Source: Bilabrum cf. latius (lineage: Eukaryota). Taken from it: a stretch of 64,000 bases of DNA. The position numbers and the translations under genes were made by a program. Positions within the stretch are counted from its first letter, which is position 1, and every line of letters begins with the position of its first letter. The notes under the pieces are model-generated. The model searched no databases. It was given only the letters and a program-made list of their open reading frames with translations, and was not told the origin of the DNA. The stretch covers positions 124,001 to 188,000 of the forward strand of contig OZ237773.1 in assembly GCA_965178125.1 (NCBI GenBank), in the 5' to 3' direction. Of the stretch, positions 2,416-64,000 are shown piece after piece.

Positions 2416-5400
2416 TCATCGTGCAGGCGGGCTCACGACCCTCATTGCAGCCCCCTTGCCCTCGGCAATCACCAGGATCGCAAACCGACGCACCCTCTGC
2501 AGCGCGTCGGTTGCAACAGACGAGTAATCGAAGGCCCCGCGCACGTCAGTGTAGCCGTCCTTGAAGAAGAATGCGTCTGCCGCCGGACCCGCAGCGGTGC
2601 TCGTCCCAAATGCCTTCACGTACGCCCGGGGAACAGCAGTTCCGGTCTCTCGATCGCGCACCGTCAGCCGGCCGAATTGCTCAGCCACAGACACCCGCAA
2701 GCCAGACCGAAGCACTGTCGCCGATCTGGACTTGCCTCCGCCGTCCACCCTCACCAGGGCGTCTCCGCCAGCTTTGTCCAGCGGAAGAAGCACTTCCGTG
2801 ACCTGAAAGGTTCCGCTGGACCGCACGGCGCCGGTCGCAACCTCGAAGCAGTGGTTTGGTCGCACCACCGAGAACTTGCCCGCGTCCCCCCCGCCGTCGC
2901 CCCCGCCACTGCTGCCCATGGCGAAGGGGCTGGTGGAGAACAAGAGCTCCACGTCCATGCCGTACAGCGATACAGTGACCGCGTCCAGGTGCGACGTGGT
3001 GATCTTGGCCGCGTGTTGGCCCGAAGTGCTGCGAACCAGTTCGAGCTCCAGCGAAGGTTCGGTAGACGCCATTCTGGCCTGCTGGCGCTCCCTTCCCAGC
3101 TCCTTCCCCTCCACGTCAGAGTCACGCTCCCCCTCCTTGAATCCTTCACTTTGTCCACCCCCAGATCTTCGTGTCCGCCACGACTCGGCCTCCTCGATCT
3201 GGGACTTCATCTCGCGGAACTTGGCCTGCCACCTGGGCACAGGGTGCTCTGCGTAGGCGGCAGCAACGCGGCGCGCGACCGAGAGCGGAGGCTCTGCTGT
3301 TCTCTGAGGACCAACACTCCCCGAATCACCACCGTCCTCCTCCCCGCCATCACCAGGTTCGAAAAAGTCCAGGTACCCGGCCATGTAGTCGTACTGCAGA
3401 ACCATCCAGTTCCGAGAGCCTGCACCACCATGCGATGAACCTGCTCCGGCACCCGCGCTTGCACGTGCACCGGTCCCAGCAACAGCACCACCGTGCGCTG
3501 CAGCCGCCACACTGCCCTCTGGGGCGGCAACCGCGGCGAACACATCCCGGGCCTCATTGGTGCGGTCCTAGCACAGCAAAAAGTACGAAAGCACGAGCAA
3601 GTTGCCTGGGCTCAGGCCGCTGGGCGACATGGCGTCGTACCCGGCCACCTCAAGGAACCTTCGGTACTGGTTCTTTAGGTCCCTGTTGGTGATCCTCTCC
3701 TGGGAGCCGAGCCTGTGCGCTCTCGCGTTGACGAGAGGACTGTACTCGAAGTGGGTGTAGGTGCCGGCCGCACGGGGGTCTCTACTCCGATCGAATCGAG
3801 GCACCAAAGGCGCTGTTTGTTCCCCGTAGTCTCCGACGTCCGGCTGGGAGCCAGTTGTGAGCAGCTTGCTCCGGATTGGGGGCCAGGAGGCGTCTTGCCC
3901 TGAGCTCGTTGCATGCCAGTGCTGTTGCACGAGGTCTTGCACGGCACGCAGGTCTCGGTGCAGGAACCCATATGCCCACACCTCCACACTCGTCATGCCT
4001 CTATTCCGGATGGCCTCAGTGATGACCTCGTAGCTGCTCCGATCCTTGCACCGCCACGCCACTTTGGCCAGGTCGATTTTCCTCGCGTGGAGGTTCCAGT
4101 CCCGGATGCACGCGACCACCTGGTCCAGCGTGCCTTCGGAAGCGATGTAGTCCCAGGACTCGAGGTCGATCTGGGTGGGCACTGCCACAACGGCAACCTG
4201 CCCGAACCCCTTGGAGGCAATGCACCTGCCCTTGCTGGCGGCCTGCACGCCGTAGTGGTCAAACCGGCCGGTGGAGGGGAAGTAGAAGAAGTAGTCGATC
4301 ACCTTGGTCTGGTAGGAGCTGATCTTCTAGGTGGCACTTCCGGTCACCACGCCCTTCCGCAGCGGCAAAGCGCCCTGGGGTATCTGAGTCAGCACGCTGA
4401 CGGTCTCTTGCCTTCTCGACACGTTCGACACTACGACCTTCACTCCGTACTGCTTGTTCCTCAGGAGCTCCGTCCCGTCCAGGTACAGATCGACCTGCTC
4501 GCCCGCCTCCATCTTGAACGAGTCCGCGGGGTCGAAGTACTGCTGCCCCACCAGCACGGTGGAAGAGGTCGGCGGGTCCACGGAGCGGACGTCACGGCAG
4601 AACAGGATGGTGGGCTGTTCCCTGGGAGTGATGGTCATATGTCCTCCCGCCACTGCTATTTCCGTCTTCTGATCTCTCTTGAATGGCAGGCCGAGCACAG
4701 CCAGCACGCAGAGGGCTTCGTTGAGGGAGGAGCGGCAGTAGGCGAAATGCGGCGATGTCGACGAGCCTTCCCCCCCTTCGCCATCAGCACCATCGGCACC
4801 ACTGGTGCCTGCTGATGCCGCGCCTGCTCCACCATCTGAACGACGCCGCAGGAAGGCTGCGATTTCCGCCCAGAACAGCGAGTTGGTGAACTGCGGCGTG
4901 GCGGAGGCCTGCACCTTGTAGTACTACGACTCGGCGAATTCCTCGGTCTTGTCCAAGCCCCTGTAGGCGGGACGGCGCGCCTGGTTTTGGACAACCTGCA
5001 TCTGCTCTCTTGTTTCCGCGAACGCTGCGAACTTGGATCTGGACAACGAAAATCCGGCGGACTGCATCTCTTTCTTCTGCAATTGTAGCCTCTTGCCCTT
5101 GGACTTCTTGCTCTTGCCCCGCCTATCATATTCCTCGAGGTCAGACACGTCAGACTCAGAGGAGTCAGAGCAAGACGAGTCAAAGTCAGAAGAGTCGGCG
5201 CCAAAATCATCGTAGTCCTCCTCGCACCTTTTCATCTCGAAGCTGTCAAACTCTGCACCGCAAGCCATGCCCCGCTCTTCGTATTCGTCACTAGACTCCC
5301 GCCGCATGGCCTGTTCGGCGGCACGCTCAGCTTCCAGCTGCGCCATTGCTTCGGCCGCTTCGCTCGCTTCCGCTGCAGCGGCCGCTGCCCCACCGAGAGC

Positions 5401-8400
5401 GTCACTCGTCAGCGCGTTCCGGAAGACGATCTCTTTCTCCGTTTGTCCCGGCCCGCCCGCAACCGCCCCGTCTCGAAGCTCCTTCACGATACCCGCACCT
5501 GCCGCAGCTGGGGTCCGACCGGCCAGCAGAGCTTTCTCAAGGGGATTCAGGCCCTCGTACCTGGACGGCGCGAGGTAGGCGCTGATATCGTGACCCAGCA
5601 CGAAATGGTCCACCAGCTGCTTGGCGCGCTTGCACTCGATGTACGGCCGAACCACAGAGTCGAAGAAGGACCGGTCCTTGAAGTACAAGAAGAGGTGCAG
5701 CTCGTGGCACGCGTACTTGCTGTACTTGGCTCGCTTGTCCTTCTCCTTTAGATCATCCCACTGAGAGATGAACAGCCAGTCCGTCTGCAGGGAGCCAAGC
5801 CGCCCCAGCTGCATGAGAAGGCGGGAGGCATCGTCGATCGTGCCGACCTCTCCGGTGCGAGTGTCCGACGAGTCGGTCAAAACCACGCTCTCACCGGCTG
5901 CGACCGACAAGGAACGTTCCTGAAGCGTCTGGTGGGTGCCCCGGGGCAGCGTCTCGGTCAGTGCCAAATTGCGATGGGCTCTCGAGCGGAAATCCACAGA
6001 GTCTTCGCCATCGTGGCCGCGCCCGCCCGCGCCCGATGCGGCTCCAGACCCGTTGCCCGGGCTTGCCCTTGCAGCGTCACTCGGGCACTCGTCCTCTAGC
6101 CCCCCAAGATCCACGTCGATGCCCCTTGTCGCGGTCGAGAATGCGTCCTGCGCGATCAGACTGACGAACACCGGGCCGATCTGGCCGTCAGAGCCGAGCG
6201 CACCGGCATGCAGTGCACCCACAAGGGCATCCGCATCGACGGTCAGGCATCCCTCCGAGTCGGGCTTAAGATTGTACGCAGCTACACCCGGCGCGGCCAA
6301 GAAATCGAAGCACTGCGGCCCTCCGTGGGAACCGGCGCCCGTCTCGGCCGACCTCGCACGCCGGGCGTGGATCATGCCACCCATGCCGCGCGCCCTGTGC
6401 TCCGTGGCGAGCCGCCCCTCCGCTGCGAATGCAAGTCCTTGCGCTGCGGTCTGCTCATCCGTCGTGGTGCCCTTCTGTGCCCACGGGTTGAGCAGAAGGG
6501 ACGGCCGGGGCAGCTGGTTGCCTGGGTGGGCCTCCTTGCCCTGGCGGTTCATCACGTACGTGGCTTCGTCACCGAGCGGAACTGTGCCAAGGTACGCGCA
6601 CCGGGGTTCGGATCCCGCCGCCTGGCACCGACCCAGTACCGACTCCGGGTCCATGGCCACCTGCCCCAGCGCGTGGAAGGCGTCGTCTCTGGCTGGGTAG
6701 AACCTGCTCGCCAGCACGTGCACCCTTGCCCCGCCCTCTGGGTCGACAGATGGGATCCCGCCCGCCACCCTAAGCTTGAGCTGGCGATCGGCAGCATCCC
6801 AACGAGCCTCCGCGATGGTGATCGGGTCGGGCTCGAAACCCGGAAGCAGCTCTCCCACCTCGCGGGGTGTGGTCGGGGGAGTGACGAGGTGGGTCCGGTC
6901 GCTCTCGCCGTACACCGTCAGGGTGTGCTCTTCCGTGCGGCGGTGCACGGGGGAGGGCCTGTGCACCGCAATGCGATACACCCCTGCGGGCAGCCCTCCG
7001 ATTTCCAGGAAACCGTCCGAGGTTGCAACCGCGTGCTCCGTGTGGGTCGCGATCAGGCTTCCGTCTGGCGACACGCTCGTCACACTGACGTCAGCTGCGG
7101 AAACCGCCCCGGTTGCAGCGCCCGTGGAGGACGGTCCCGGGCCTCCGCCGTCAGAGCGCGCCGGTCCGGGCGCACTACTGCCCGACCCATCGGACGCCCG
7201 GCCGCCCTCGCCGTGTCCCGCAGGCTGGGCCGACGACTGCCGAAAGGGGAGCTTCATCTGAAGGGGCGCACCTGCCGCTGCAGTGCGTTGCACCCGCAGG
7301 TACCTGTGTCCGTCCAGGTCGCCCAGGTGGAACGTGCGGGATGGAACCCGGATGGTGGGTGTCTCTGAGTTCACGAGGAGGTCGATCGTGTTGGGCATGT
7401 GGCCCAGGCATGCTTCTCCCTTACCATCGGTCTTGATCAGGGCTAGCTGGACGGCACTAGACAGGATTGTGGTGTAGGCCTGTACGCGCAGGCACACCCC
7501 AGGCACGGCCTCGCCAGACCTGCCCAGCACTGACAGGACGAGCCCCCGCACCGGCTCTTTACGGAGATACACGTCAGCGATTTGGTCCGTGTCCAGGATC
7601 GCGTTCGTCTCGATCTGGTGTGACGATTGTAACGTGCACTTTCCCCCGGTGTGGCCCATCTCGATGGTACCGGTTAGCCTGAAGCTAAGCCTCTTCAGCC
7701 CCGCAGGCACGAGAAAGCTGAGCTCCGTCTCACCGGACTCCGCAAAGCTGACAGAGTCGTACGTCCGCTCGCTCTTTGACCTGTCCACGTCTCTAGACTC
7801 CACAACTACTTTCCAGTCCTTCACGCGCTCCAGCGGAACAGCCACCAGACGCGCGGCGCCGCTCTTCAGGAACACTCGCGGGCGGATGGCCACTGCAGCG
7901 TGCCGGCTGTCTCGCACCAGCTGCTACCTGTCGACGTACCAGCCGCACTCCATGTCGTATTCTTCCTTGTACATATGCAGCTAGTGCAGGGAGGAAAAGG
8001 ACCAGACGCCGGAATCCGATTCCGAGTCGCCGGCTCCGCTGGCCGCCCCGCCCGCCCCGCTGGAATCGGGTAGCACGGTTACGATCATCTGGGCGGTCGT
8101 CTCCCTGCCCAAATAGGGCACGTAAATCTCCTCCACGATTCCGGCGCCGCGCGATGATCCTGCGGAACCGCTTTCCTTGCCCTCGCCGGCCCCCTCGGCG
8201 TTGCCTCCAGACACGTCCCCCATGCGGGCATAGTCTACGCCATTGATCGTCACCTTGACCCTGTCCGACGGCAAGGGGTTATTCTGCTCGTCTAGCACCC
8301 TAAGCGCCAGTCCAGCCGGCTTGCACTGCGCGAGGTACCGCAGGGCACCCTTCCGGATCAGGGCGCGGATGCACTGGCCCTTGCCCACCACCTCCATGAT

Positions 8401-10570
8401 GAAGACCCCGCGCCTAGGTTCCGCAAGCAGCGGCGCCGCGACGGTCTCTACGTGCACAACCACCGGGGGATACCTGTCCTCGAAGTCGAGCACCTGCTCC
8501 CAGGTTGGTCGCAAGCCCTGCAGGTCGACAGAGGTGTCGATCTCGGTGAGCTTGCTCTGGTAGTAGGCCGTGGTGTTCACCTCGAACAGGCGAACCTTCA
8601 CCTGAGGAACGTTCTTCACGCGGATACGTACCTCCGCCGCCTCGGACACTCCGAACTGCTTCCGGTTTGACTTGTCAAAGACCAGCTCAGATGAGGTCAT
8701 CATGTCCCTGACCCGCTGGTCTCCGATCACCTTGGCCGCTTCGAGTAGGTCACTAGACCCGGCCGAAACGACGCCCGAATACACTTTCTGCACCGCTTGT
8801 TCTCTGGCTAGAACTTCACGCGGCATCATGTCGTCCAGGTGGCCAAACTCGCCGTCCGGTAAGCCCCGCAGCATGTCGCGGATGCCTTGAGTGAGGAGCT
8901 CCGAGTCCTGCGTGGTCGAGGGAAATCGAAGGTTCTTCGGGGTGGGGAACCCGTACCCTCCCCGGACGGCAATGTAGCTGGCCAATGGTTCAGCCCCGGC
9001 GTTGCCGGGCCGCTCCTTGAACGAAATGACTGGGAACGGATACGAGGCGCGGTCGATCGTAGCGAACGCATCGAAGGCCGCCGAGTTGGTCGCTGGTGAA
9101 CCCGTCCTCTCCCAATCGATCCGGAGTCGATGGTACATAAGATAGAATGGGATGTAGCTGAAGGCCCTGCCGAGTCGGATACGATCGAACGTTGCCTGTG
9201 CGTTGTCGAGGTACTCCAGCTGGCCCTCATAGTCGCCTTGATGCGGCGCACCGTGCTGGGGCAGAATCCTCTGGAATATGGCGTGCACCCACTGCCTGTC
9301 GTTCTTGAGATCGTGCGTATTACCACGGGACTGCAGCGAAATGAGCTGCTCCAGGGAGAGCAGCCTATAGTACTGAGCGCTGCTGCCTCTGGTCCCTTTG
9401 GGCTTGGGGTTCGGCAGCACGGCACCGAACGTCACCGCGCTCATGATGCCCCTGGCCAACGAAGGGTTTTCGGGCATCACCACGTCCCTATCGGCGGGAA
9501 ATTCGGTCAGAATCGCCTCAACGCACTCGACGGGATCCATGCCCGCTGGGAAATGGTTCTTCTGCACGACAAAGTGGCGCAGATGCTCCTTGTACACGGG
9601 CGTACCGCATTCGCTCTTGATCCTGTTCAAAATGCGCGTCACAAACGGCGACCGCGATGCCCCGTACCCGTCCTTGAACTGGCTCATCCAGCCAAGCCGA
9701 AGCCCCTGCTCCTTGAGTTTGCCTGCCTGGGGCAACCCTCCAGCCTGTCGGACGGCAAGCTCAAACAGCTTCTCCTCATTCGTGGGATCTGCGGCGCTTG
9801 TATCTATCGCAGATGGTGTCTTGTCTTCAGCTGCACGGGCAGCCGCGCCTCGCGTGCCTGCGACAACCTGCCTCTGGCGCTGGGTCGACAGCCGCAGGTC
9901 CTGCTTTATGTGATCCAGGAGCGCCTGCGATCCAGGGTGTAGATTTCGAATAAAGGGATTGACTGTTATCAATAATACGCCCCAGACAAATGTATTCGTC
10001 ATCGTGAGTGCCCTTTAAGTGGATTCTGCCGCTGTTGCAGCACTCTAGCGAAGCACCGACGGATCTCCAAGAACACGCTGATTCGAGCAATTCTGGGCAC
10101 TTCATGGGCGTTGATCTCACAGAATCATCTTGAGATGTACCATCTTGAAAGCGGATGAGCTTCTTTCTCAACTGTGCCGTCTGTTGCGCGGAAACGAATC
10201 CGAAATTACTTGCGTTCGTATCGAAAGCATGCTGAATTTTCTCTTCCAACTCCTTAGGGAACCCTGGGGACCAGAAGACACGAGAAAATAAATCATGTCA
10301 GTGGGTGTCCCTCCCATTTGCGAATGGGGGCAAAGGGGGTAAGCAGTAACAAGAATTAGATGAAGATCGCAGAAGCCTCACCATGGGCCTCAGATACAAG
10401 CGATAGAAGGCGAGTCTGCTACAAGCTACCGGCAACTGTGTTCTCATTAATCCACGCAATTGGATCCTGCGAGTATTGTAGTAGAGCAAACATTCAAAGA
10501 CTGTTGGCGAAGCATGAGACTCGATGCATGCAGATTCACAGAATTCCGCAGATCTAGCCTCATCGAACAT
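2416..10570 (-). CDS. Giant (~2,500+ aa) conserved protein with probable macroglobulin-like beta domains
   Basis: ORFs 7981-10002, 4924-7917, 4327-4914, 3568-4302 and 2416-3543 are in one frame, separated only by TAG; terminal TGA at 2416-2418. The C-terminus FFKDGYTDVRGAFDYSSV...RFAILV...VVSPP and the motifs YSKYACHELHLFLYFKD and HFEYSPLVNARAHRLG match, from recall, a family shared by planctomycetes/myxobacteria and protists. 5' exons (~10130-10570) and the start are uncertain. Confidence 0.8.
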
Positions 10571-10823: not shown

Positions 10824-11958
10824 TCACTGCCTGCCCGCGTCACCGGCAGCAGCAGCCCCCCCCGCAGCGGCCCCAGCCGACCCCGCTGCCGCCTTACCGC
10901 CGAGAATCTCCCAGACCGTCTTGGTCGCAGCCACCGAGTGCTCCCACAGAGCCTTGCCGGTCTCGGGACCATCGGTCCGCTTGTCTGCCTCCTGCACATC
11001 GGGGTATCCAGACAGTCCGGGCGGGCCGACGTACGACGCGGGCGGCACGTCACCGAATGCAGCCATGGCCGTGGGCAGGCAGCCCATGTACTGCGACTGG
11101 GCCACCAGAGCGTTTGCAATGGTCGCACCCGTGACCTCTCTCTGCAGCCGGGTGGCGCTGTAGCCCGGGTGGCACGCCACCGCCGTGACCCCCTTGTCAC
11201 CGGCGATGCCAGCAGCCTCCAGACGGCGCTAGAGCTCCTTGGTGAAGAGAACGTTCGCGAACTTGGTGCAGCGGTACTGCATCCACTTGTCGTACCCCTT
11301 CTCGGCTGCCATGTCCTCCAGCACGACTCCTTTCTCGGTCGTGTTTCCCATCGTGTGGTACGCGCTCGAGACATTCACCACTCGGCTGCCCGGCCGCTTC
11401 GCGAGAAGGGGCAGCAGCAGAGACGTGAGCGTGAAGTGACCGTAGTGGTTGGTGGCCATCTGAAGCTCGAATCCATCTTCGGTGACGCGACGATCAGGGG
11501 TGGCCATCACTCCAGCGTTGTTGACGAGCACGTCGATTCCTTCGGGGTGTGCTGCTGCCACCCGAGCTGCGGCTTCGCGTACGCTCTTCTGTTTAGATAG
11601 ATCACACACCTGGATTTCTACATTAGGGGCGTCGGTATCTTTTCCTTTGCCGCGTTCTTTTACGCCCACGTCACCAGCTTTGCGCACCTCTGCGGCAGCT
11701 TCCTCCAGCCTCTCCTTGGATCTTCCCATCATGACGATGTCAGCACCTTTCTTTGCAAATATTTTGGTTGCCTCGAAGCCGATCCCGCTGTTGGCTCCTG
11801 CGAACAATTGGGATACTATTGGTTCGATGTGCGGCGTGCTTATTACCGCGTTAATTGTTCAGTCATTCAGATTTTGCTACCTTACCAGTCATCACAACAA
11901 GCTTCCTCGTTAGTTCGGGCACACTCGATTCATCGAACTTGCTCGAACTTCCTCCCAT
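10824..11958 (-). CDS. Short-chain dehydrogenase/reductase (retinol dehydrogenase/WWOX-like), predicted N-myristoylated
   Basis: Exon 1 MGGSSSKFDESSVPELTRKLVVMTG (11958-11886), GT-AG intron 11885-11798, then GANSGIG, NNAG and YRCTK (YxxxK). TAG at 11229-11231 falls in ANVLFTKEL*RRL (family consensus ELQRRL). TGA at 10824. Confidence 0.92.
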
Positions 11959-19275: not shown

Positions 19276-19382
19276 TTACAAGGGGGGCCACAACCGGTGA
19301 ATCTGCTGTTGGTCTACGAAGCACCGCACACATTATTAGTTGGATCTACCCGCTACGCGAATCACGTTGCCTTTCCTAGTCC

Positions 19383-23609: not shown

Positions 23610-23803
23610 TGAATCGGTGCAAGATTGTAAGCAGGCTTGATCGAGCTGCCCGTCATCACACTCGATCAAGTGCAACTCACCGGCCGGGGGACGCTAATCA
23701 AATGCAAAATTTCATTGTTTCGGCAATCAAAGCTGGGAAGTCATTCGAACTCAACATTGGTCAAACGCTACACCAAAGACGAGAGGGCAGCACCAGGCCT
23801 GCC

Positions 23804-37300: not shown

Positions 37301-38137
37301 AACTTGAGCAAGAGGCTTGATACCATGCGCGATCACGTAATTGCAAGTGGCGCACTCGAAGCAGCTCGTAGCGTGCTTCAGCTCGACTCAAAGCTCGGCG
37401 TGAATACTGAGTCTGCCCGACGCTTGATCCGAAACATCTCTGCCGGGTCTGAGCGCTGCAAGCAGGCCGTGGTGGAAGCCAAAGTGCTACCGTTGATTGT
37501 AGCACACCTCGAGATGAGCAATTGCGCTATTGTGCTGGAGACATTTTGCTAGCTTGCTGCTGGACCGGAGGTTGTCAAGCGAGCAGTATTGGATGCAGGC
37601 GCGGTGTCGAGGCTCGTGCAGTACCTAGAAGAGGACGATCTGCACGCTCTCATTTCTGTGCGTACTGTTGCTCGTCTGTCCGCGGGAGATGACTCGATCA
37701 AGACCGCTATTTTGGAGCTCAAGGTGACAGATGGGCTGGTGAGTCTCCTTAGGCGAACAGAGTAGCAGCTTGCTGTGGAAGCAGCGACAGCGCTGGGACG
37801 GCTTTCACTAGCTTCTGGCGATGCCCGCTCCAAAATTATAGAGTCTGGTGCTGGTGGTGCATTGGTGCGTATCGTTGCTGCAGGTAGAGCGACAAGGACA
37901 TCCCCTTCAGTGGCTCGAGCAAGGCTTCGAAGGGCAGCACCCCCCATTCCCAGTGCGAAGCAGGTGGCGGCGGCAACGGCCCTCAGCTCGATCGTGCGCG
38001 AAGATGCGCATGTCGCTGAGCTGGCCGAGGACATGGACGCTGACGACAAGTCTAATTTGCTTGCGGTGCTGAGGGCCATTGGTGGTTGGTGCGTGGAGGA
38101 TCTGGTTAATAGGGTCGAGCGGCTGGGATAGAATTGA
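31373..38137 (+). CDS. PINK1-like pseudokinase fused to a long armadillo-repeat array (2,254 aa, single exon)
   Basis: Ten listed ORFs share one frame, interrupted by 16 TAGs and no TAA/TGA until 38135-38137. HRDLKLDN and GGNQAHLAPEV are present; DFG is replaced by SLE. Many ARM units follow (AGAVPGLVKLL, SGAIPALV, AGAMEPLVNLL). Confidence 0.88.
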
Positions 38138-53361: not shown

Positions 53362-55689
53362 TCACACCCCACACCTACCTTTCGCCCTGGCAATGCTGCT
53401 ACGAAGCTCCTCAAGGCGGTCCCTATGCTAGCGAACCTTCGCCTTGGTTCGCTGCAGCCTCTCCTGCGCTTCGGCAACGCGACGGGCCCACCTCGCTGGG
53501 TCTGTGCCGGACCTCGTGCTGTGGTCAATGGTCGAACCACCGTGCGCTGCACCCCATGACCCATCATCCTGATCGTTGCCAGGCTCAGACGCAGTCAAGT
53601 CAACGCCTCTGTCACTCGTCACACCTCCACTGACCTCACCATCCGCGTCCTCTTTCTGCTCACCATGCCCCAAACCCAAGGTCGAGGCAGTCGCAGCGGC
53701 TGCGGCTGCTGCAGCTTCTACGCTCGTCATACCGGGCAACAGCCATGAGACTCTGTCCAACCAATCCACCCGAGGGTCCACGCCTGGCCTTGTTCCGGTA
53801 TTCCCGGCAGCATCTGCCCCCGCATACCCTGCGCGCCCCTCGCTTGTCTACGCTTCGCTGGCTGGTGCAGGCTCCGGCACAGGCACCGGCACAGGCACCC
53901 CCTCTTCCTGTGCCACTCGGAGCCAATTTGATTCGTCCCCGGCCGCTACGAGGAGACTACCAGCAGGAATCGCAGCCGCGTGAGAACCGCTCTGGCTCAA
54001 TCCACCGGTGGATTCAGCAGCGCCCTCAACGCCGCCGCCGCCGCCCCACACGGGAGCTAGACCAGCCGCCTCGTCTGCGCCGGCATCACTTTCATCGTTG
54101 GTACTAGCAGCAGCACCCGAGCTCCAGCCATTTAATTCGGCTCTGGACTACACCTGGATGCCTAGGGCACTAAGAAGCGGGCGAACGTCCCCGAGATCGT
54201 TCCATGCCTCTGTCTCGCGACCCTGGTCACCAGTCGCAATCGATGCCTCGCCAGAATCGAGGATCGATCGGAGCCGGAACGCCGCCGCACCCGCGCGCCT
54301 GTGGGCCTCTTGGCGCTTTCGACGAGCAGTCCGGGTTGCACGCTGCGCACTCGTCACACCCGTTTCCACGCGTGCCCCGCTGGCTGCCAGCGACAATGCA
54401 ACGGACTGCAAGGCCAGTCGAGGCGCCGCGCGATCACTTGCGGAACCTGACTCGTATATAACTCCCGGATAGGATGGTGTCTTCCAGGGAACAACGCACC
54501 GCGCAGCTTCCTCAATGGATGCGTGCCGAGAAAGGGTGCGGGCGGCCAACAGCTGCAGCTGGTGCCACAGTGGACCCAGGATCGCCCGCGACGAACGTTC
54601 TCCGAGGGCTCGGGGATCTGCTCCAGACCCGAGCTGCCCCGATTCCACAGCCACTGGGATACGCCCCTTCGCCACGAGCAGTCGAGATGCCTCACTGTGC
54701 TCCGATCGCATGGAAACGCGCTCAGCCGCGGCTCGTTGCTGCCCATGCACGGCTCGCTGCCGCCGTGCCACCGCGCGAGATATGCCCGCGGCGAGTTGGT
54801 CGCAACTTTGGGCCAGATCGGTCCGGCTCATCATGGCCGCGTGGATCCTTGGGTCGCTCGGCGCCGCGCCTTGCGGAACCAAGCCGAAGGGCAGCGTGGC
54901 CGTCGACCCTCCCCTGCCACCAGGCAAAGCCCCCTGGTTCGGATCGGATCGCTTGAAGCCGCGCCGTCGTTGCTGCTTCTACCTTGTAGGTGCATTCATA
55001 CCTACCCCGGCTCTAAGTGATGTTTCTCGCTTTCCTTGTTTGCCCCGATCTCGCCCACTCAGTCTGCTAGATCTATGTTTGTTCGTGAGCCGCTTGCGTT
55101 GCTGCGCCCCGCTATGCCCGTCGCGAGTAAGGCTACCACTCGGCGAGCTGGCTCGCTATTTCACGGCAAGACTTCTCTCGTCACTTATTTCGGTCTGGCT
55201 ATAGTGCTGAATTTCGTTGGTGCCGTCGGCCAAGCGAATACCACCACCTGCCCTGCCGCTGTACAGCCTGTCTGCTGCGGTTCCAAACAGAACGCTCGCA
55301 TCGCTATCGGATCCCGATGCGTCTTGACTAGTATTACTGCTCAGAACGTACTCGCCAGTCTAGTTTGGTGCATATCCTGCTTGCATTGCTCGAGAACTTG
55401 CACCAACGGACCTGAACTTGTTTGTCTCTTCAATAGCCCCATTTCTCCCGCCTGATCCTGAGCTACGACCATGACCTGGGTTTAAAACATGTTGGTTTAA
55501 TTCTGACTGATCTTCCAATGGCTCCGAGCTATCAGAAAGCATCTCAGCTAGGTACTATCGAGTTGCAGTTGGGGCGCTCGATGCCGCTTCGCCCGTTGAT
55601 GCACCCCCCTGAAGCTGCTTTCGGATGGAACCTACCAATTCATCAATTGAATTCACGCTCTCCACGTCAGAGTCATTTCCGCTGCTCAT
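53362..55689 (-). CDS. Hypothetical low-complexity/coiled-coil protein (~775 aa)
   Basis: One frame from ATG 55689 (MSSGNDSDVESV...) through 7 TAGs, joining ORFs 55360, 54148, 53848 and 53428, to TGA 53362. A terminal intron near 53376 is possible. Confidence 0.7.
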
Positions 55690-55788
55690 TGCTCAAATGT
55701 TTCGTAGTTTGGCTGGTGGTGCCAGTCTTCATCTTCGAATCATCATGATCCTGATTGATGCTTGTTGTTGTAGCAGATGCATTGAGAA

Positions 55789-58700
55789 TTACCTGTATTG
55801 CGCATTCAACAAACCCCTTGCGATCAGCCCGCCAGCCGCCCCAAGCATCAGCACCCTCTCCAGCTCATGCCGCAGCCCCGAGGCAGCCCCTATAGGCATG
55901 CCTGCACCTGCACCAATGCGCTAGCCAAACACGCGAAGCACAGCTGGATGCTTGTCCAGAAGATCCTTTGCCTCCTACTCATTGAGCAAATTGGAACTGT
56001 CTCCGCCGATGTTGCTGCTGTTATCCACTGCCAGTGGAAGCCTAGAGCCGCCTAACAGCCGGTGCAGTTGACTAACGCTTGCCAGTGGTTGGGCCCTGGC
56101 GTTGCCGACAGATGATGTGCTCGCATGCCCCCGAGCACTTGCTCCGCTAGTTTTGCTCGCCTCTTCGATACCATTGCCGATGCCAGCCGCTGTCCGAATC
56201 GACTCATCCAAAGCAGGCCACACCACTCCGGGATATCGAGCATTCAGGCTCCGAATCGCAGAGATGCACTCTGCTCTTGAGAGCACCGGCACCTACTCAG
56301 ACCCGAAATGAGACGCAGAGCTGCCCCCTCTGCTCCCTCTACCACCGCCAAGCAGCATGCGCGCCAGCCACGCAGCCACATCGAAGACCCGCCGGAGATC
56401 GACAACATCCGTTACGCTACCCATACTGCCCACCACAACGGCTGAGTCGCTGTTCCAAACTGCACGCAACAACGAGATATCGTTCGGAGGCGCCCAGTGC
56501 AGGAAGCCAGGCACCGAAGCAGCGCCAGAGGCGAAGGGCTACGGGGAAGGCGGACTCCGGCCGAAACCCGCACTTCCGGATTTCAGTGGCGTTGACTTGC
56601 TGCTCCGGGTCCCGCTGGTAGCCCAGCTGCCTTCAACATCGATGAGGTCGGCTGAGACAGACTCAGTTTGACCGAGTCCAGCAGCAGTGGCTAATGCGCT
56701 GCACGCCATGGAGGCCCACTCGGGTGGCACGCCGATAGACCCCGACGCAGCAGCTGGGATTCCTCCATCACCATCAACACCCATGGCAGCGGCACCTGCC
56801 CGCACCACGTCCGTCGCCCACTTGTACCCGACGAATCCACCGAACGTTCCATCGTCGCCCTCGTCACACCGCTCAGGCAGCGGCAGCCGCACCACACCCC
56901 CAGACCGCTCAGACGCCCCCACCACCCGAACCAGCGAGCGTGGCAGTGCCCCAGGGAACACGACGAGGTCGAGGAGGCAGCACGCGCGGGCAAGGCGCAC
57001 GAGAAGCACCAGGGGCACGGCAGCGTGAGCGAAGGGGATAGGGTCGTCGGGCAGAGCTAGGAGAGCGTTGCCGCAGCCGTCCAGGCACTTGGCCATGGAG
57101 CGAAGCAACGGGGCAAGGGCGGCGCGCATCGCAGCCTCGGCTGCTGCGTGGGAGCACGATCGTGCAATGCACCTTATCGCGTGCACCATTCGCGCAGGAG
57201 CCACCGACGGCTTCGGGAGCTCCTGGATGCCAGGGAACAACGATCCTGGGTGAGAGTGCGGCGACAGTCCATCGTCAGCACCGGCACCATCGCCTGCTTT
57301 GTTGCTGCCCTTGCGCCGCTTTGATTTGCCGGCTTGAGGCCTTTGACCCGATGGCCCGCTCGCTCGGCCGCTGTTGCTTGGCTAATCGTCTTGGTTCGGC
57401 TAGTAATCCTCGTCACTGTCGGCAGTGGCTCGCTACTAAGGAATGATCCACGAACCCGCTGCCCCCATTGTTGCAGTACCAGAGCCGTTAGGTGCGCCCA
57501 CTGCGCTGCCCCACTCCTGCTGAGCCACTTGAGCCCGGTCCGCGCCCGCCGTCGGCCGCTCCACCGATGCTTCTGCGCTGCTTGCATTGCCACTGCTACC
57601 CCCTTTGCTGCCTACATCCTCATCCTCATCGTCGTCCTCATCACCATCGTCATCCTCATCGTCATCCTCATCGCCTCCGCCGTACCGCGAGGGACGGGTC
57701 ACACGCCTGCCAGCCCGTCGAGTGAACGTTCGTTTTGGCAAGGGAACCGAGGACTCGGAGTCCTAAACCAGCAGGAAGGCCTGGCTCGCCGCCGCCGACA
57801 GCGCGCACGCGATGCGAGCGACGTCCCCTGCTGCCGAGTCTTCCTCCACAGAGCTGCCGCCTGCAGCAGCGGCGAACGATGCCCTTCTGGACATCGCGCG
57901 GCCGCTACGGCTGCGGGCCCACGCTACCGCAATGCAGTGCACCTTGACGAGCAGCCGGCTCGACTGTTCCCTCACGAGAGAGAGCAGTGCCCCGCGGCCC
58001 GAGCCCACCCAGCCGAGCCACGCCTGCCTCGTCGCGACTTCCACAGCCTGCGCAAGGGCCACCCAATCCACCGGTGGACTCGCCGATGCACGGCCCGCGG
58101 CTCTCCGCCCTCGCAACGAGGACGAGGCTGCTGCCACTTGCTCAGCGGCACTCGTCACAGTAGCCACGGCTCCACGCAGCGCAGCCACGGCTGGGTTCGC
58201 TTTGAGCTTGAGCAGGGAGGCGCCGTCCCGACCGCATGCAGCTGCCTGCAGCAGAAAGAGCTGGCCAGTGCGCGCGATGCCTGCCCTTACCTGGTGCACA
58301 AGCGCGGTCTGGCCAACGTGAGAAAGCTCCGAGGTATCTCCCACAGCACTGCGAGAGTCTGCCATAGTGAGCTAGGGCTAGTGCTGACTCCGAGTTCTGC
58401 GCCCGTGCGATGGGTTCGAATCAGCTGGTCCGCTGCAGCAGCCAAGCACAACCAGCCGCCCAAGCCCCTCCAGCAGCATCATCCCTTCAGGAGTCGTGAC
58501 AGCCTGGCTCTTGACAGACACGGAAACAGCTGCCGACGGCATACTCGAACCAGAGGGGTTGTCAGTAGCGTCGGTACCAAACGATGCAGACGAGGAATTC
58601 CCGTCTCCGTCCACTCCGCTGCCAGCACTGTCGGTCTCGGGATCAAGACCCAGACGCACCCGCTCCCTGTCTCGCTTTTCTTTTTTCTTTCGTAAATCTG

Positions 58701-61700
58701 CCACCCAAGCTGTCTCAATGGGTGTGACGAATGCACCGTGCAGGACGGATGCGGCCAGCTCCGGCAGCAGCGTCGGGAAAATGCTGGAAATATTGACGTT
58801 TGACGTGGAGAGAGCGCCTGCGCTTTGGCCTTGCTACGAATCGCCAGTGCTTGCTTCCTTTGCACCTGTTGCCGTTGCGACAATCTCGCCTCCTGCCGCC
58901 ACCAGGCACTGACGAAGCAAGGCCGCAAGAAGCTGTGCCTTGCCTTTAGCCATCGCTCCTCGATCTATAGTAGAACTCGTCACGCCATTACCCGCCCCGC
59001 TAGTGCCGTCATCTATCCCACCCAGGAGAAATGCTTCAATGCCATCTGCGATTGTCCTGTGCTGTACCGCTTGCTGTGAGAGTCCAGACGACGACAAGCC
59101 GTCACCGCTAGGTTTGCCGCCCCTGTTGCCAGAGGCCTTCTTCCCACTTTTAGAGCACAATGCATCGATCTTTTGTAGCTGTTCCTCGATTGCCCGTGAC
59201 AGAGCCGTTGGTGACCAGCGCTGCAGCGCCCGAATCCGCTTGATGTTCTGGCGGTACAAGGGCACGTCGGACTGCAACCTGTGGTTGGCTGCTACCCCTG
59301 TCGGGCCGTCGGCAACATTCATCGGAGCTGGGCTCGCTTTCTGGAGCTCAACGGCTAGTTGGTGCGACATTGTGCCGAGCAACGTGGAAACGCTGCTGCT
59401 GGCATACAGCAGCTGAGACCTGGGGGTGCTGCCGCTAGTGCTCGGAGATCCTGCCTGCTCGGCTCCTGCGGCCGCTGACGCTGCTGCCGCTGAGATCTTC
59501 GATCGCAACCCAGTCGCACGATCACTCGTCATCATGCCAACCAGAGCAGCTCCTGCGGCCCGGACTACCCAGGAACTGGCTCGCAACGAACCCGTGTAGT
59601 CGTGACGGGTCGCAGCCAGTACCAAATGCGCGGCGAGCTGCAGCGGAACCAACTCATGCGCACTCGCCACACGTGTCATTTTCTTCGTGTCGCTCCTTGC
59701 TGTACGACCTGCCTGAGGTATGGTTGTTGCCATCGCTGGCTACCCAGCCGAGGAAGAAGACGAGGATATGGAGGAAGACGACGAGGACTGCGGTGCTGCC
59801 GACACATTGGAACTCAAAGCTGGCTATTCCAAGGTAGACGAGTGCGACTGCAGCGCATTGTAAGTTCCGCGACTAGCGTCCACTGCTTCGAGCACGGCAT
59901 CGGCAAGAGCATGACCCGCGGATGACGTCAGCGCCAACCGGTCCGCAAGCGCTGCAACTGGCTGGAGCAAGCCACCGGTGCTGCCTCCGCTGCTGCTCGC
60001 CTGCTTCACCATCGCCCTACCTGATGCAGAAGTCCTGCCAGTACCAACAGCTCCACTCATAGCTGGTTGTACATCTGACCGTAGTGCACCAGTGCCATGC
60101 CTCAGGCCAGCACTGCGGTCGCTCCTGGATCCTCCCAGCACGGCTTGTGCCATGAGCGCGTCGGCCACATCGAGCCCTACTCCAGTGGATCGCTCCATGC
60201 AAGCAGCAAGCACCGCGCGCCAGCCCGAGGACAGCACTCTAGCGCTCCGATCGGTTGAGGCATCACCTGCGCCGCCTTGTGAGGCAACATCACCATCCTC
60301 GATTGGAGCCAACGCGCACGCGCCGGCCAGAGCACCCGACCACAGGCCCAGGCGTCGCAGGGCAGACGCATGCTCAAGCCCCTCCTTGCCCTGCACGCCC
60401 GCTTCAAGCGAGAGGTCTCGCAGGTTGCAAACCCGCAGCGCCACTGCAGCCGCCTCAGTGCATCGCACAAGGACGGACCCCGCCACCGATGATCCCTCGG
60501 TCACCTGTGCTCGTCCGGCCCCCGGTCCTGCATGATTGAAGCAGCTGACGGCGTACAGAAAGAGGCTTTGCAGCGGGGAAGAAAGCGATGCTTTGACGCA
60601 TGCAACGACCCGAAATGCCTCGCGCTGCAGCCTTGCGAGCCCTGCTTCACCTGCAGCTGCAGCCTATGAGGAGGCAGCTGACGACGGCTGTGGCGGATCC
60701 GAAGCGTCAGAACAGCCCTGCATAGCGGATCGCACCGCACTTGCCACACCCCCGGGTGCCACGGACCTACCCGAAAGCAAGCGATGCAACAACGTAGCAG
60801 CTGTGCCTGCCACGAGGTTATCCGAAGCCTTCGTCTATCGGAGTGATTCTGTGGTTGCAGCTCTGTCCGTTTCGTCATCGTCATCATCATCGTGCATGGC
60901 AGTCTGGGACGTCTGCCTCGACGCTGCGGCCGCGGCTGCAGCGCCAAGCACCCTTGACCCTATCTTCTCCATGGCGCTCCGAGTGGGAGTCACGATGTCC
61001 AAAAACGTGAGCTCGACAGTCCGTAGGATGCTCTCAATGTCGCGGCTCATCTGAATGGCACGGATAGTTCGGTTGCGGCGCTTCCGATCTGCTGTAGGCC
61101 GGGGCCTTGCGGTGTGCAGCACTGCACGAGTCACCAGCAGCAGCACGCCGGGGTCACATCTTGGGAGGGCTCCCAGCACAGACTCGAGAGTGGTGTCAAT
61201 TGATGCTACGTCGCTGCTTCCCGACGCTGCCTGCTGCAGTGCGTTGCACCCGGCCACTTGCCGCAATCTCGCAGCCAGCCGTGTCTGCAGCTGCCCCATC
61301 ACTCCAGTGCTTCTATCATCGCCACCTCCTGCGCTGTTTGGATATTCAGACCCACTGTCATGGCCGGGTTGTACATCCCCGCCCCTCCCGCACGCGACTA
61401 GGAGAGGACACACCATGTGGTCAGGCACCCCCTCGAGGGCCCTGGCATCGCGCGCAACGGCTTGTAGCACCCACCCGGGGATATCCGCAGAACCACTGGA
61501 CACGGAGCTGCCGATGGCGGCCTCGACAAGCACAGCCTTGTCGGCTGCTTTCGGCTCGGTGCTACCTGCACTGCCACACTTGTGGTCTAAATCTCGGATC
61601 AGCCTCGCCAGTATAGACTGCTGCATCTGCCACTCGTGCTCCTCGGGCTGCGATACAGAAAACATACATTGGACCATACGGTGCAGCGCACGGTGCTGCT

Positions 61701-64000
61701 CCTGCCGTAACTCCGCAACGCTCAAGCGAAGTGCTGCCCTGACGGCCAGCTGCATGAGCGGGGGCTAAGCGCAAGACGTCATTAGCGGCTGAAGCCTGTG
61801 CTGACGGACCAGACGACCAAGTGATGTGGCGTAGTCCACCGGTGGGCAGCAAAGAGATACCGCTGCAATCACGCGGCGGCTTGCCCGCGTCCACTAGAAA
61901 GCACCGGCACCTTCTGGTCCTTTGCGCAGTGCCACTGCCACTTTGGCCATGATTGCGACGGCTTGCGACCACTACTAGGGCCAGCTAGCTGCGGAGCTGT
62001 TCTGCAGAAGAGCAGAACCACCCGAACTGGGTATCCCGCTTCGTTCTGACGCGCTGCCGTGCCCGCTCTTAGTCTGCCCTGCAGTATTGGATGGCTGGCC
62101 AGCAGACTGCTTCTTTCGGGCTGCTCGCTATGCCGACTGATCCGATCCCGAGTCACCAGAGGGCAGCAGCCCGGCGGCAATGGCCAGCTGCAAAGCTGCA
62201 AGCGATGCCAGGGCGATGACCTGCCTCGCGCTTGGCTGCTCCATTAAGCTACCAAGGGCATGACCCCCACCATCAGAGCCGAGTCCCTCTGGCGATGCCG
62301 TCGGTGACACGCCAGCAAGCGGAGATGCTGCCATGGGACTTGACGAGATTCCAGGCCCAGGTTCCCCGCTTGCAAGCACCTGCATGCAGTCGGCTAGCTG
62401 TGCCAATACACTGCCGATCGACGGGACTGGGTGCCTGCTTGCGGCACACGCCGCGGTTCCGAGGCTCGTCCATGGCATGCGGGAGGCAAGGAGTGCTCGC
62501 TGGAGACCGTGTGACGAGTGACTTGGGTCTACCATGGAGGGGCCGATCGCGTCTCCGCAGGCGCGCGCAAATGCAGCAGTCTCCAGAGAATTGAGTCCAG
62601 CCCACGGGGCACCAGCTGCGCCGCCACTTTCAAGAAGTTTCTCAGGAGTATCGGCCGATGCACCGTGCCCGCTAGCACTGCCCGGCTACTTCGAATGGGC
62701 AGCACCACCGCCACCTACTTGGTACCGTGCGGCCAGCAAAGTCCTGTGCACCATCGCGGCTTTCTCCTGGGCCACCCGGTGCGACGAGTGCCGCGGTCCA
62801 CCGGTGGATCGATCCGATCCCTGCGACCTAGCGGATGACGAACGGCCCATGCCCGAGCTGCTGGCGATCGCTCCAGCCCCTGCAGCACCACGTCTGCCCC
62901 TAGCGGCCGAAGCGCTGTCGCTGTCGCTCGGCATAGACACTGACAACGATGAAGACGATCTGCCCATCGGTCCATCAGCAAATCTGATGGGGGCGTCAGA
63001 CTCCATGTCATTGTTAAGGTCTAGCCCGTGGCATGCCTCTAAACCGTGCAGCAGCACAAGCGCTATGCATCTGGGAGCTCCCTAGGTCTGGGCCGGCACT
63101 GAGCTCTGCTTGTTGGGCTCGTACGGCTGCAGCGCAAGCACCTGCAGCTTTGCAGGCCGGCCATCCGAAGCATGCGATTGAACTGCACCAGAATCGGCTC
63201 TTTCCATAGAAATCTGTCCTGCTGCTGCCTGGTAAGATGCTTCGCGACTCTCCGTCGTTCCCACGCCGCCAGGCAGGGATGCCTTCTCGCCGGCTGACCC
63301 GAGGAATGCGGCCGATGGCAGCATAGGCGACTGGCTTGAGCTGCTGCTATCAGCAGCATTCTGCAGGAGCACGCCTGCAGTGCACTGCTGAGCAATATGG
63401 CTGGTCCCAACTGTGACGCAGGCGGACCGCAGCAGCTGGCTGAACGCCTCCCTTGCCGCTCGACCGGTCGCAGTCTGTTCCTCCCGGGCAGCCGCTGCCA
63501 GCTGCGACCGCAAGCCGCCTCCAGCAGCTCCTGACACAGAGCCGATACTTGATAAAGCGCTACGATAAGGCTGATTGTTACTGGAATTAGCCGCTGCGGC
63601 GCCGTCACCGCCCTCACCATCCGCAGTGCCAGCGCCCTCACGATCGGATCGCACCGGTGCGGCCAGAGACAGCACAACGTCCTGAAGGACTGAGTCGTGG
63701 ACTCGGAGCGATATATCCATCGCCGGTGGTAGCAGGGTCAGAGTGGCTCCAGCCGCGTGGACTGACGCATTCCGCTACCCATACCCAAGCCACTGCCGCT
63801 GCCGCTGCCGCTGCCAGGATGCCTGAAGGTGACTGGCACCAAGCCATGCATCCACTACCCGACGCATCGACAAACTGACCGCCTCCATCGAGTTGCGACC
63901 AATCTGCGTAGAAGCACCTGCTTGCTCGCCTTCGGGCTCCCCAGACTGTTCCAAAGTGGCGTGCACGGAAGCAGCGAGGGACTGCTCCTGGGACCGAAGC
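55789..64000 (-). CDS. Giant hypothetical alpha-helical protein (>2,700 aa, start lies outside the window)
   Basis: Thirteen listed ORFs share one frame. More than 8.2 kb contains no TAA/TGA, only TAGs (including TAG-TAG pairs). Ends at TAA 55789-55791. No domain recognised with confidence. Confidence 0.82.

What the first reader, a model, noticed from the sequence alone, without database searches (positions are those of the whole stretch)
2416..64000. Variant nuclear genetic code: UAG = Gln while UAA and UGA remain stop codons
Seen: every long gene is broken only by in-frame TAG, never TAA or TGA (16 TAGs in 31373-38137; >8.2 kb at 55789-64000 including TAG-TAG pairs). Genes end in TGA or TAA (21963, probably 55789). 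Amino-acid identity is supported by FAHD1 DMTARDA*, SDR KEL*RRL, and a CAG/TAG swap in an internal duplication. Established: most nuclear reassignments move UAA and UAG together; UAG-only cases are rare (Iotanema spirale Gln, a rhizarian Leu, some ciliates). Inference: if the host is a Cafeteria-like stramenopile, this may be an independent origin requiring a tRNA-Gln(CUA) and an eRF1 that ignores UAG. I cannot confirm from the sequence whether it has been reported.
Basis: partly seen in the sequence, partly recalled or inferred. Interest (0 to 1): 0.95.

Follow-up and report, generated by a model that had tools for sequence, protein, structure and literature searches.

The report
Nuclear code reading TAG as glutamine
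This stretch of an unidentified GC-rich eukaryote's chromosome reads the stop codon TAG as the amino acid glutamine while still ending genes at TGA and TAA, a rare but already described kind of genetic-code change.

Summary
In 12 trimmed gene models (14,184 codons) the in-frame stop-like triplets are TAG 73, TAA 0, TGA 0. Off frame they are TGA 553, TAG 209, TAA 93. Reading TAG as sense raises the longest ORFs from 1418/999/868 aa to 2736/2532/2376 aa; TAA-sense and TGA-sense controls do not lengthen them.

The DNA is eukaryotic and nuclear-like: contigs of two runs skip GT..AG introns of 93-110 nt. These spliced contigs keep five TAG codons unchanged in two genes, so TAG is neither edited nor spliced out there.

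TAG means Gln:
- FAHD1 column 1 is Q in 120 of 120 homologues; column 2 is Q in 77 of 120.
- The one SDR TAG aligns to Q.
- At 20 TAG sites a relative has Q 11, E 4 and five other residues once each.
- 6 of 7 internal ORF breaks in that relative fall on our Gln or TAG codons.

TGA ends 11 of the 13 ORFs and TAA ends two, plus a further ORF at 21963.

This matches NCBI table 15, known from Iotanema and a few ciliates. The organism, its tRNA and its eRF1 could not be examined. Verdict: a real new member of a known kind.

The parts
2416..10014 (-). ORF of 2532 aa with 5 in-frame TAG, ending in TGA; no Pfam family
10824..11858 (-). Short-chain dehydrogenase exon with one in-frame TAG at 11231-11229; ends in TGA
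   Evidence: Pfam adh_short E 1.8e-30. The TAG aligns to Q in the nearest solved homologue, 3rd5_A.
14722..17853 (+). ORF of 1043 aa with 8 in-frame TAG, ending in TGA; a lineage-restricted protein
   Evidence: Only 5 hits among 1.84 billion representatives, 3 of them fragments of a relative at 85-86% identity.
22263..23711 (-). ORF of 482 aa, EGF-like plus GH43-like by Atlas features, with 2 TAG; ends in TGA
23804..28702 (-). Ankyrin plus protein-kinase gene with 5 TAG. It holds a 48-nt tandem duplication (24344-24439) whose two copies differ by TAG versus CAG.
   Evidence: Pfam; TAG list; TRF; alignment of the two copies
29101..29966 (-). Ankyrin-repeat gene with three introns (about 29343-29443, 29544-29653, 29762-29858). 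TAG codons at 29746, 29686 and 29250 lie in exons covered by spliced contigs.
   Evidence: Joints with CT..AC ends in X6 (depth 62) and X7 but not in X1 or X5; X6 record 17 and X7 record 23 show 0 differences. Coordinates.
30021..30969 (+). FAHD1-like acylpyruvase gene with two introns (about 30086-30188 and 30280-30372). TAG at 30547-30549 and 30865-30867; stop TGA at 30967-30969.
   Evidence: PDB matches to FAHD1 at E 9e-41. TAG columns are Q in 120 of 120 and 77 of 120 homologues. Spliced X6 contig covers 30373-31352 with 0 differences.
31373..38137 (+). Protein kinase plus armadillo-repeat gene with 16 in-frame TAG; ends in TGA
   Evidence: Four fragments of a relative at 77-90% identity over the aligned part.
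47019..50759 (+). Non-LTR retrotransposon ORF (reverse transcriptase) with 2 in-frame TAG; ends in TAA
   Evidence: Pfam RVT_1 E 6e-16
51877..53211 (+). C2H2 zinc-finger gene with 3 TAG in the ORF; ends in TGA
53362..55692 (-). ORF of 776 aa with 7 TAG; ends in TGA
55789..63999 (-). ORF of more than 2736 aa, open at the window's end, with 24 in-frame TAG including two TAG-TAG pairs. It ends in TAA at 55791-55789, followed by an AT-rich stretch.
   Evidence: Two fragments of a relative.

Best explanation
The window is nuclear DNA of an unidentified eukaryote with about 60% GC. In this organism UAG has been reassigned from stop to glutamine, and UGA (mostly) and UAA still terminate translation. 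That is the code of NCBI table 15.

Shown here:
- TAG is the only stop-like triplet inside coding frames.
- TAG stays unchanged in spliced mRNA.
- TAG sits at positions that are Gln in homologues.
- A related organism shares the trait.

Inferred from what is known of other such codes:
- A tRNA-Gln with anticodon CUA reads UAG. It would have arisen by one anticodon change from tRNA-Gln(CUG), and it cannot pair with UAA.
- The release factor eRF1 has lost or weakened its recognition of UAG.
- TAG codons then arise mainly by C-to-T change from CAG. They now make up about 11% of Gln codons (83 of 742).
For: 1. ORF structure and triplet counts: in frame TAG 73, TAA 0, TGA 0 in 14,184 codons; ORFs of up to 2736 aa appear only with TAG as sense.

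2. Independent DNA: contigs of run X5 (another study and another organism label) show 0 differences over 15 of the 18 TAG codons of FAHD1 and the kinase-ARM gene.

3. RNA: contigs of X6 and X7 skip five GT..AG introns that X1 and X5 do not skip. These spliced contigs cover 5 TAG codons (30547, 30865, 29746, 29686, 29250) with 0 differences.

4. Amino-acid identity:
- FAHD1 TAG column 1 is Q in 120 of 120 best homologues. Column 2 is Q 77, D 21, S 11, E 7, N 2, C 1, K 1.
- The SDR TAG aligns to Q in 3rd5_A.
- At 20 TAG sites aligned to 10 ORF fragments of a relative (77-94% identity) the relative has Q 11, E 4, and Y, L, V, G, N once each. The control is CAG to Q in 50 of 55. Log-likelihood is best for Q (-46.6) against H (-68.3) and E (-69.0).
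- Of the relative's 10 fragments, 7 end inside our ORFs. At 6 of those 7 our codon is CAG (3), CAA (1) or TAG (2); the seventh is AAG. Gln codons make up about 5% of codons.
- The two copies of a 48-nt tandem duplication differ by TAG versus CAG.

5. Stops:
- The FAHD1 ORF ends at TGA about where its homologues end.
- Two of the relative's fragments end exactly at our TGA stops.
- TAA ends three ORFs.
- After the TAA at 55789 the frame turns AT-rich and meets TGA 20 codons later.
- If TAA were Gln at the CAA:CAG ratio (162:497), about 24 in-frame TAA would be expected beside 73 TAG. None is seen.

6. TAG codons are spread along genes, with 25 of 73 in the last fifth and one two codons before a TGA. 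No fixed downstream context appears: the next base is C 29, A 17, G 15, T 12.
Against: - Only 64 kb could be examined. No tRNA gene lies in it and eRF1 was not seen, so the mechanism is inferred.
- At 9 of the 20 sites compared with the relative, the relative does not have Q. Sites where both have TAG are invisible in fragments broken at TAG, which enriches for changed sites, but that is my explanation and was not tested.
- In the five solved FAHD homologues shown the second FAHD1 TAG aligns to D.
- The relative's DNA was not seen, so its breaking codon is inferred to be TAG.
- TAA as a stop rests on three ORF ends, none fixed by homology.
- Whether some genes end at TAG cannot be told. Only FAHD1 has a C-terminus supported by homologues.
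- Assembled contigs drop rare variants, so partial RNA editing is not excluded.
- The tool labels X6 'RNA? (probably DNA)'. Only its intron-skipping contigs are shown to be RNA.
Confidence: 0.85

Rival explanations
1. Ambiguous code: UAG is read as Gln inside genes but also ends some genes, depending on context, as in Condylostoma or the karyorelict ciliates.
For: The window cannot exclude it. A gene ending at TAG would simply read on to the next TGA or TAA in my ORF models. In the kinase-ARM gene a TAG lies two codons before the TGA.
Against: Every one of the 13 ORFs has a TGA or TAA end. The FAHD1 ORF ends at TGA about where its homologues end, and two gene ends shared with the relative fall at our TGA. 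TAG is not depleted near 3' ends: 25 of 73 lie in the last fifth.
Confidence: 0.1
2. Ordinary table 6: both UAA and UAG mean Gln, and TAA is merely rare in frame because the genome is GC-rich.
For: GC3 is 0.58-0.75, and TGA ends 11 of 13 ORFs.
Against: CAA is not rare: 162 against 497 CAG. About 24 in-frame TAA would therefore be expected beside 73 TAG, and 0 are seen. Reading TAA as sense lengthens the host-gene ORFs listed by 0-29 codons. Three ORFs end at TAA. The TAA at 55789 is followed by AT-rich sequence.
Confidence: 0.03
3. UAG is sense but codes another residue such as Glu, Tyr, Leu or Ser, as in some ciliates, the rhizarian exLh or Scotinosphaera.
For: At 4 of 20 sites the relative has E and at 1 it has Y. 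D stands at the second FAHD1 column in the five solved homologues shown.
Against: Q stands in 120 of 120 homologues at FAHD1 column 1 and is the commonest residue at column 2. The log-likelihood for Q is more than 21 units better than for any other residue. 6 of 7 internal breaks in the relative fall on Gln or TAG codons.
Confidence: 0.02
4. No code change: pseudogenes, assembly errors, RNA editing of TAG, or leaky readthrough at special contexts.
For: None specific was found. One TAG-bearing ORF is a retrotransposon, which could be decayed.
Against: - Decay would give TGA and TAA as well, and none is in frame.
- The same letters stand in contigs of runs from other studies.
- Spliced transcripts keep TAG.
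- Conserved, expressed genes (FAHD1, SDR) carry TAG at Gln columns.
- No shared downstream context appears.
Confidence: 0.01

Closest known systems
Iotanema spirale (Fornicata): UAG = Gln, UAA kept as stop (Panek et al. 2017, PMC5304391; passages read)
   Same: Nuclear code of a non-ciliate eukaryote in which only UAG was moved to Gln. A tRNA-Gln(CUA) and an altered eRF1 are the proposed mechanism there too.
   Different: In Iotanema UAA is the dominant stop, whereas here TGA ends 11 of 13 ORFs. Iotanema was known from a transcriptome only; here genomic DNA with introns and retrotransposons is in hand. Whether the two are related is unknown.
Ciliates with NCBI table 15 (Protocruzia tuzeti, Hartmannula sinica, Trochilia petrani; McGowan et al. 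2024, PMC11687900; passages read)
   Same: The same codon table: UAG = Gln, with UAA and UGA as stops. UAG is spread along genes like a synonymous Gln codon.
   Different: Those genomes terminate 93.5-100% of aligned genes at UAA. This window has 60% GC, TGA-dominant stops, introns of 93-110 nt and a LINE-like element. From my own knowledge, not from a call here, these traits are not ciliate-like.
Table 6 lineages (UAA and UAG = Gln): ulvophycean green algae, hexamitin diplomonads, Streblomastix, Amoeboaphelidium protococcarum
   Same: Stop-to-Gln reassignment with TGA as the usual terminator.
   Different: TAA is not sense here: 0 seen against about 24 expected. Amoeboaphelidium genomes have about 40% GC (PMC10608142, table 1) and are reported to read TAA as Gln as well (PMC6299283).
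TAG-recoded phages and giant-virus genomes (code 15)
   Same: TAG read as Gln.
   Different: This locus has spliceosomal introns removed in RNA, protein kinases, ARM and ankyrin repeats and a non-LTR retrotransposon. It is therefore cellular and eukaryotic.

Membership tests
UAG-only stop-to-Gln nuclear code (NCBI table 15) | UAG occurs in frame at many places in coding sequences | tested here: met
   73 in-frame TAG in 14,184 codons of 12 gene models. Long ORFs appear only with TAG as sense. TAG is kept in spliced RNA contigs.
UAG-only stop-to-Gln nuclear code (NCBI table 15) | UAG positions correspond to glutamine in homologues | tested here: met
   FAHD1: Q in 120 of 120 and 77 of 120 homologues. 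SDR: Q. Relative: Q at 11 of 20 sites, with the likelihood best for Q. 6 of 7 breaks in the relative fall on Gln or TAG codons. CAG/TAG swap in a duplication.
UAG-only stop-to-Gln nuclear code (NCBI table 15) | UAA is not a sense codon and still terminates | tested here: met
   0 in-frame TAA against about 24 expected. Three ORFs end at TAA. The frame turns AT-rich after the TAA at 55789. The sample is small and no TAA end is fixed by homology.
UAG-only stop-to-Gln nuclear code (NCBI table 15) | UGA terminates | tested here: met
   0 in-frame TGA although TGA is the commonest off-frame stop triplet (553). 11 of 13 ORFs end at TGA. The FAHD1 ORF ends at TGA about where its homologues end. Two gene ends are shared with the relative.
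UAG-only stop-to-Gln nuclear code (NCBI table 15) | UAG is no longer used as a terminator | tested here: inconclusive
   No gene in the window needs TAG as its end, and TAG is not depleted near 3' ends. Only one C-terminus (FAHD1) is supported by homologues.
UAG-only stop-to-Gln nuclear code (NCBI table 15) | A tRNA-Gln with anticodon CUA | not testable with these tools
   No tRNA in the window, no Rfam match, and no genome held.
UAG-only stop-to-Gln nuclear code (NCBI table 15) | eRF1 N-domain changes (GTS, NIKS, YxCxxxF motifs) that weaken UAG recognition | not testable with these tools
   The eRF1 gene is not in the window and the organism's other DNA could not be reached.
UAR = Gln code (NCBI table 6) | UAA also occurs in frame as Gln | tested here: not met
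   0 in-frame TAA. Reading TAA as sense adds 0-29 codons to the host-gene ORFs listed.
Programmed stop-codon readthrough | A shared sequence context downstream of the leaky stop, at a few sites per genome | tested here: not met
   The base after TAG is C 29, A 17, G 15, T 12. There are 73 sites in 12 gene models, up to 24 in one gene.

The most novel reading that the evidence does not exclude
A previously unreported, independent origin of the UAG-only-to-Gln code. It would lie in a GC-rich, TGA-terminating, intron- and LINE-bearing eukaryote lineage that is neither a ciliate nor a fornicate. It would be shared by at least two species that differ by about 15% in protein sequence, so it would be older than their split. 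Because genomic DNA and RNA already sit in public runs, the tRNA-Gln(CUA) and eRF1 predictions made for Iotanema in 2017 could be tested directly.
Probability: 0.45. Interest if true: 0.75.

Novelty: new member of a known kind. Interest (0 to 1): 0.6.

Why it matters
UAA and UAG almost always change meaning together. Lineages that separate them are few: Iotanema, a rhizarian, Scotinosphaera and some ciliates. They are the natural test cases for how a tRNA(CUA) and eRF1 tell UAG from UAA.

A further case on a different genomic background would help to show whether base composition or stop-codon usage drives such reassignments. Here that background is 60% GC with TGA as the main stop, whereas the ciliate and Iotanema cases mainly use UAA.

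There is also a practical point. Standard gene callers break this organism's genes at every TAG. The fragments of 149-385 aa found for its relative in the public protein collection show this. Its proteome in databases is therefore fragmented until it is re-called with table 15.

Tried and rejected
**Material that could not be reached**
- No whole genome is held for the window. ARAGORN found no tRNA and Rfam found no family, so tRNA, rRNA and eRF1 could not be examined.
- Sequencing runs: no RNA holder is listed on record. RNA status was inferred only from intron-skipping contigs.
- The search for related loci in metagenome contigs with the kinase-ARM protein found only two distant kinases at 27% identity, so no DNA of the relative was obtained.
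- The search of earlier findings found nothing on this genome or this sequence. By words it found one note on another genome, a giant virus reading TAG as Gln. A viral origin is rejected here because of spliced introns and the retrotransposon.

**Annotation attempts**
- Pfam found nothing for 11 of the 17 ORFs scanned, among them 2416-10014, 12866-15238, 14722-17853, 22263-23711, 38863-40500, 53362-55692 and 55789-63999.
That protein was then not searched outside, so its 5 TAG columns remain untested.

**Placing the organism**
- The Atlas on the ORF at 22404-23693 gave a nearest cluster 'commonest Cercozoa', with the phylum known for only 5 of 63 members. This is a weak lead only.
- The Atlas on the RT ORF gave mixed taxa.
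- Named FAHD1 hits at 45-55% identity come from plants, early fungi, a dinoflagellate and molluscs, and do not discriminate.
- The idea that this is an aphelid (Amoeboaphelidium) is rejected. Those genomes have about 40% GC (PMC10608142, table 1), are reported to read TAA as Gln too (PMC6299283), and have NCBI proteins, yet no near-identical named hit appeared.

**Other readings tested**
- A readthrough context was sought and not found.

**Literature**
- Ten full-text searches found no paper on a GC-rich non-ciliate eukaryote with UAG-only = Gln other than Iotanema.
- The library lacks most subscription journals and supplements were closed, so this does not prove that it is unpublished.
- PMC6733595 and PMC12560768 were opened and were irrelevant.


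Full report
**What is in the window**

The 64-kb window has about 60% GC throughout. Under the standard code its longest stop-to-stop ORFs are 1418, 999 and 868 aa. With TAG read as sense they become 2736, 2532, 2376, 1632, 1246 and 1043 aa. Reading TAA as sense changes almost nothing, and reading TGA as sense does not lengthen the longest ORFs.

The ORFs that appear include:
- an ankyrin plus protein-kinase gene;
- a kinase plus armadillo-repeat gene;
- a short-chain dehydrogenase;
- a C2H2 zinc-finger gene;
- a non-LTR retrotransposon with a reverse-transcriptase domain;
- several long ORFs without any Pfam family.

A FAHD1-like acylpyruvase gene interrupted by introns lies at 30021-30969.

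**Check of the observation**

- 16 TAGs lie between the Met at 31373 and the TGA at 38137.
- 24 TAGs lie in 55789-63999, with two TAG-TAG pairs.

In 12 gene models trimmed to likely coding parts (14,184 codons) the in-frame stop-like triplets are TAG 73, TAA 0 and TGA 0. In the other two frames of the same DNA they are TGA 553, TAG 209 and TAA 93. Gene decay or sequencing error would therefore have produced mostly TGA.

The ORFs were delimited by TAA and TGA, so the fairer control is to ask whether they grow when TAA is also read as sense:
- Six of the nine listed host-gene ORFs grow by 0 codons, big2736 by 20 and big2532 by 29.
- The retrotransposon ORF grows by 207 codons.
- An unannotated ORF at 10518, opposite the SDR gene, also grows, from 488 to 930 aa.

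Eleven of 13 ORFs end in TGA and two in TAA. A further ORF ends in TAA at 21963-21965.

**Eukaryotic, expressed and not edited**

One 12-kb stretch (29000-41000) was laid against contigs of four public runs carrying four different coded organism labels.
- X1 and X5 cover it collinearly.
- X6 and X7 hold contigs that skip five short stretches with GT..AG ends (CT..AC on the other strand). Three lie in a minus-strand ankyrin gene (skips of 101, 110 and 97 nt). Two lie in FAHD1 (103 and 93 nt).
- X1 and X5 show no such joints.

These contigs therefore derive from spliced RNA, and the locus belongs to a eukaryote with spliceosomal introns.

TAG is kept in those spliced contigs:
- The spliced X6 contig over FAHD1 (30373-31352, depth 56) has 0 differences from the window and contains both FAHD1 TAG codons.
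- The spliced contigs over the ankyrin gene contain three more, at 29746, 29686 and 29250.

So TAG is neither spliced out nor edited in these transcripts, as far as contigs can show. Contigs drop rare variants, and the tool itself rates X6 as 'probably DNA' overall.

X5, from another study, agrees letter for letter over 15 of the 18 TAG codons of FAHD1 and the kinase-ARM gene. This argues against assembly error.

**Which amino acid**

Five lines of evidence bear on this.

1. FAHD1. Among the 120 best homologues out of 3806 found, the column of the first TAG is Q in 120 of 120. The column of the second is Q 77, D 21, S 11, E 7, N 2, C 1, K 1. In the five solved structures shown, the second column is D. 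That column alone would not decide.

2. SDR. Its single TAG aligns to Q in the nearest solved homologue, 3rd5_A.

3. Residues of a relative at our TAG sites. The public protein collection holds ORF fragments of a relative at 77-94% identity. They comprise one fragment for FAHD1, four for the kinase-ARM gene, three for the 1043-aa ORF and two for the 2736-aa ORF. One kinase-ARM fragment is listed with the same longest-contig length (3555 nt) as the FAHD1 fragment, which suggests that the two genes are neighbours there too.
   - At the 20 of our TAG sites that these fragments cover, the relative has Q 11, E 4, and Y, L, V, G, N once each.
   - As a control, our CAG sites are Q in 50 of 55.
   - With substitution frequencies taken from the same alignments, Q is the best reading by more than 21 log units over H and E.
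   - The lower conservation at TAG sites is expected, because sites where both organisms have TAG break the relative's predicted ORF and cannot be seen. I did not test this explanation.

4. Where the relative's fragments end.
   - Two end exactly at our TGA stops.
   - One runs past our stop.
   - Seven end inside our ORFs. At six of those seven our codon is CAG (3), CAA (1) or TAG (2), and the seventh is AAG. Gln codons are about 5% of codons.
   - So the relative's own in-frame stop codons sit at Gln positions, and the trait is shared by at least two organisms.

5. Internal duplication. A 48-nt tandem duplication in the ankyrin-kinase gene has TAG in one copy and CAG in the other.

**TAA and TGA**

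TGA behaves as a stop:
- It is never in frame, although it is the commonest off-frame stop triplet.
- The FAHD1 ORF ends at TGA about where its homologues end.
- It coincides with two gene ends in the relative.

TAA is also absent in frame. CAA is common (162 against 497 CAG), so a TAA read as Gln would be expected about 24 times beside 73 TAG. None is seen.

The TAA that ends the 2736-aa ORF is followed by an AT-rich stretch and a TGA 20 codons on. This speaks against table 6. The evidence for TAA as an active terminator still rests on three ORF ends without homology support.

**What could not be settled**

- Whether TAG also ends some genes. TAG is not depleted towards 3' ends (25 of 73 in the last fifth), which fits full reassignment, but only a genome-wide survey of C-termini can decide.
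- The mechanism. A tRNA-Gln(CUA) that cannot read UAA, plus an eRF1 that no longer recognises UAG, is inferred from what is known or proposed for Tetrahymena tRNAs and for Iotanema (PMC5304391, passages). The window has no tRNA gene, and no other DNA of the organism could be reached.
- The organism.
   - Named FAHD1 hits do not discriminate.
   - One Atlas lead to Cercozoa rests on five records.
   - An aphelid origin is rejected on GC content and reported code.

**Comparison with what is known**

UAG = Gln with UAA and UGA as stops is NCBI table 15. Passages read in PMC11687900 list the cases:
- Iotanema spirale, Protocruzia tuzeti and two phyllopharyngean ciliate lineages for UAG-only = Gln;
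- a rhizarian and other ciliates for UAG = Leu;
- Scotinosphaera for UAG = Ser.

In the ciliate and Iotanema cases UAA is the main terminator. Here it is TGA, in a 60% GC genome with introns of about 100 nt and a LINE-like element.

Ten full-text searches found no report that fits such an organism. The library is incomplete and supplements were closed.

**Verdict**

It is a new member of a known kind of code variant, possibly an independent origin in an unplaced lineage. It is of solid interest to specialists but is not a new category.

Noticed in passing
window 38223-39024 and 40228-41000: High-copy repeats. Summed contig depth in X1 reaches 1389-4398 and 162-534, against about 18-23 for the flanking single-copy DNA. 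Many variant letters and loose ends occur there in all four runs. The kind of element was not determined, and no tRNA or Rfam match was found.
   Followed up: no
window 31807-32608: Part of the kinase region of the kinase-ARM gene has raised depth (112-157 against 18-23 in X1). X1 also holds contigs that skip 304-327 nt between about 32166-32178 and 32483-32494 without intron-like ends. This points to paralogous copies or a structural variant.
   Followed up: no
window 47019-50759: A non-LTR retrotransposon ORF (RVT_1) carries 2 in-frame TAG and ends at TAA. With TAA read as sense its frame stays open for 207 more codons. Either it is a decayed copy or the element has lived long under the host's code.
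   Followed up: partly
window 24677-25019: A 30-nt unit repeated 11.4 times (96% matches) encodes a Pro/Gln/Ala-rich decapeptide array inside the ankyrin-kinase gene.
   Followed up: no
window 43880-45450: Nested tandem arrays with a 39-nt unit (4.6 and 21.7 copies), a 348-nt unit (1.9 copies) and a 111-nt unit. They lie in a region without a recognised gene.
   Followed up: no
window 14722-17853 and 12866-15238: Two long neighbouring ORFs on the same strand; the upstream one has a Ser/Thr/Pro-rich stretch. The downstream ORF has only 5 matches among 1.84 billion representative proteins, 3 of them from the close relative. This looks like a lineage-restricted protein family.
   Followed up: partly
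window 29101-30969: The only introns seen by RNA joints are 93-110 nt long and lie in two small neighbouring, divergently oriented genes. The giant ORFs of 2376-2736 aa read through without any detected intron.
   Followed up: partly
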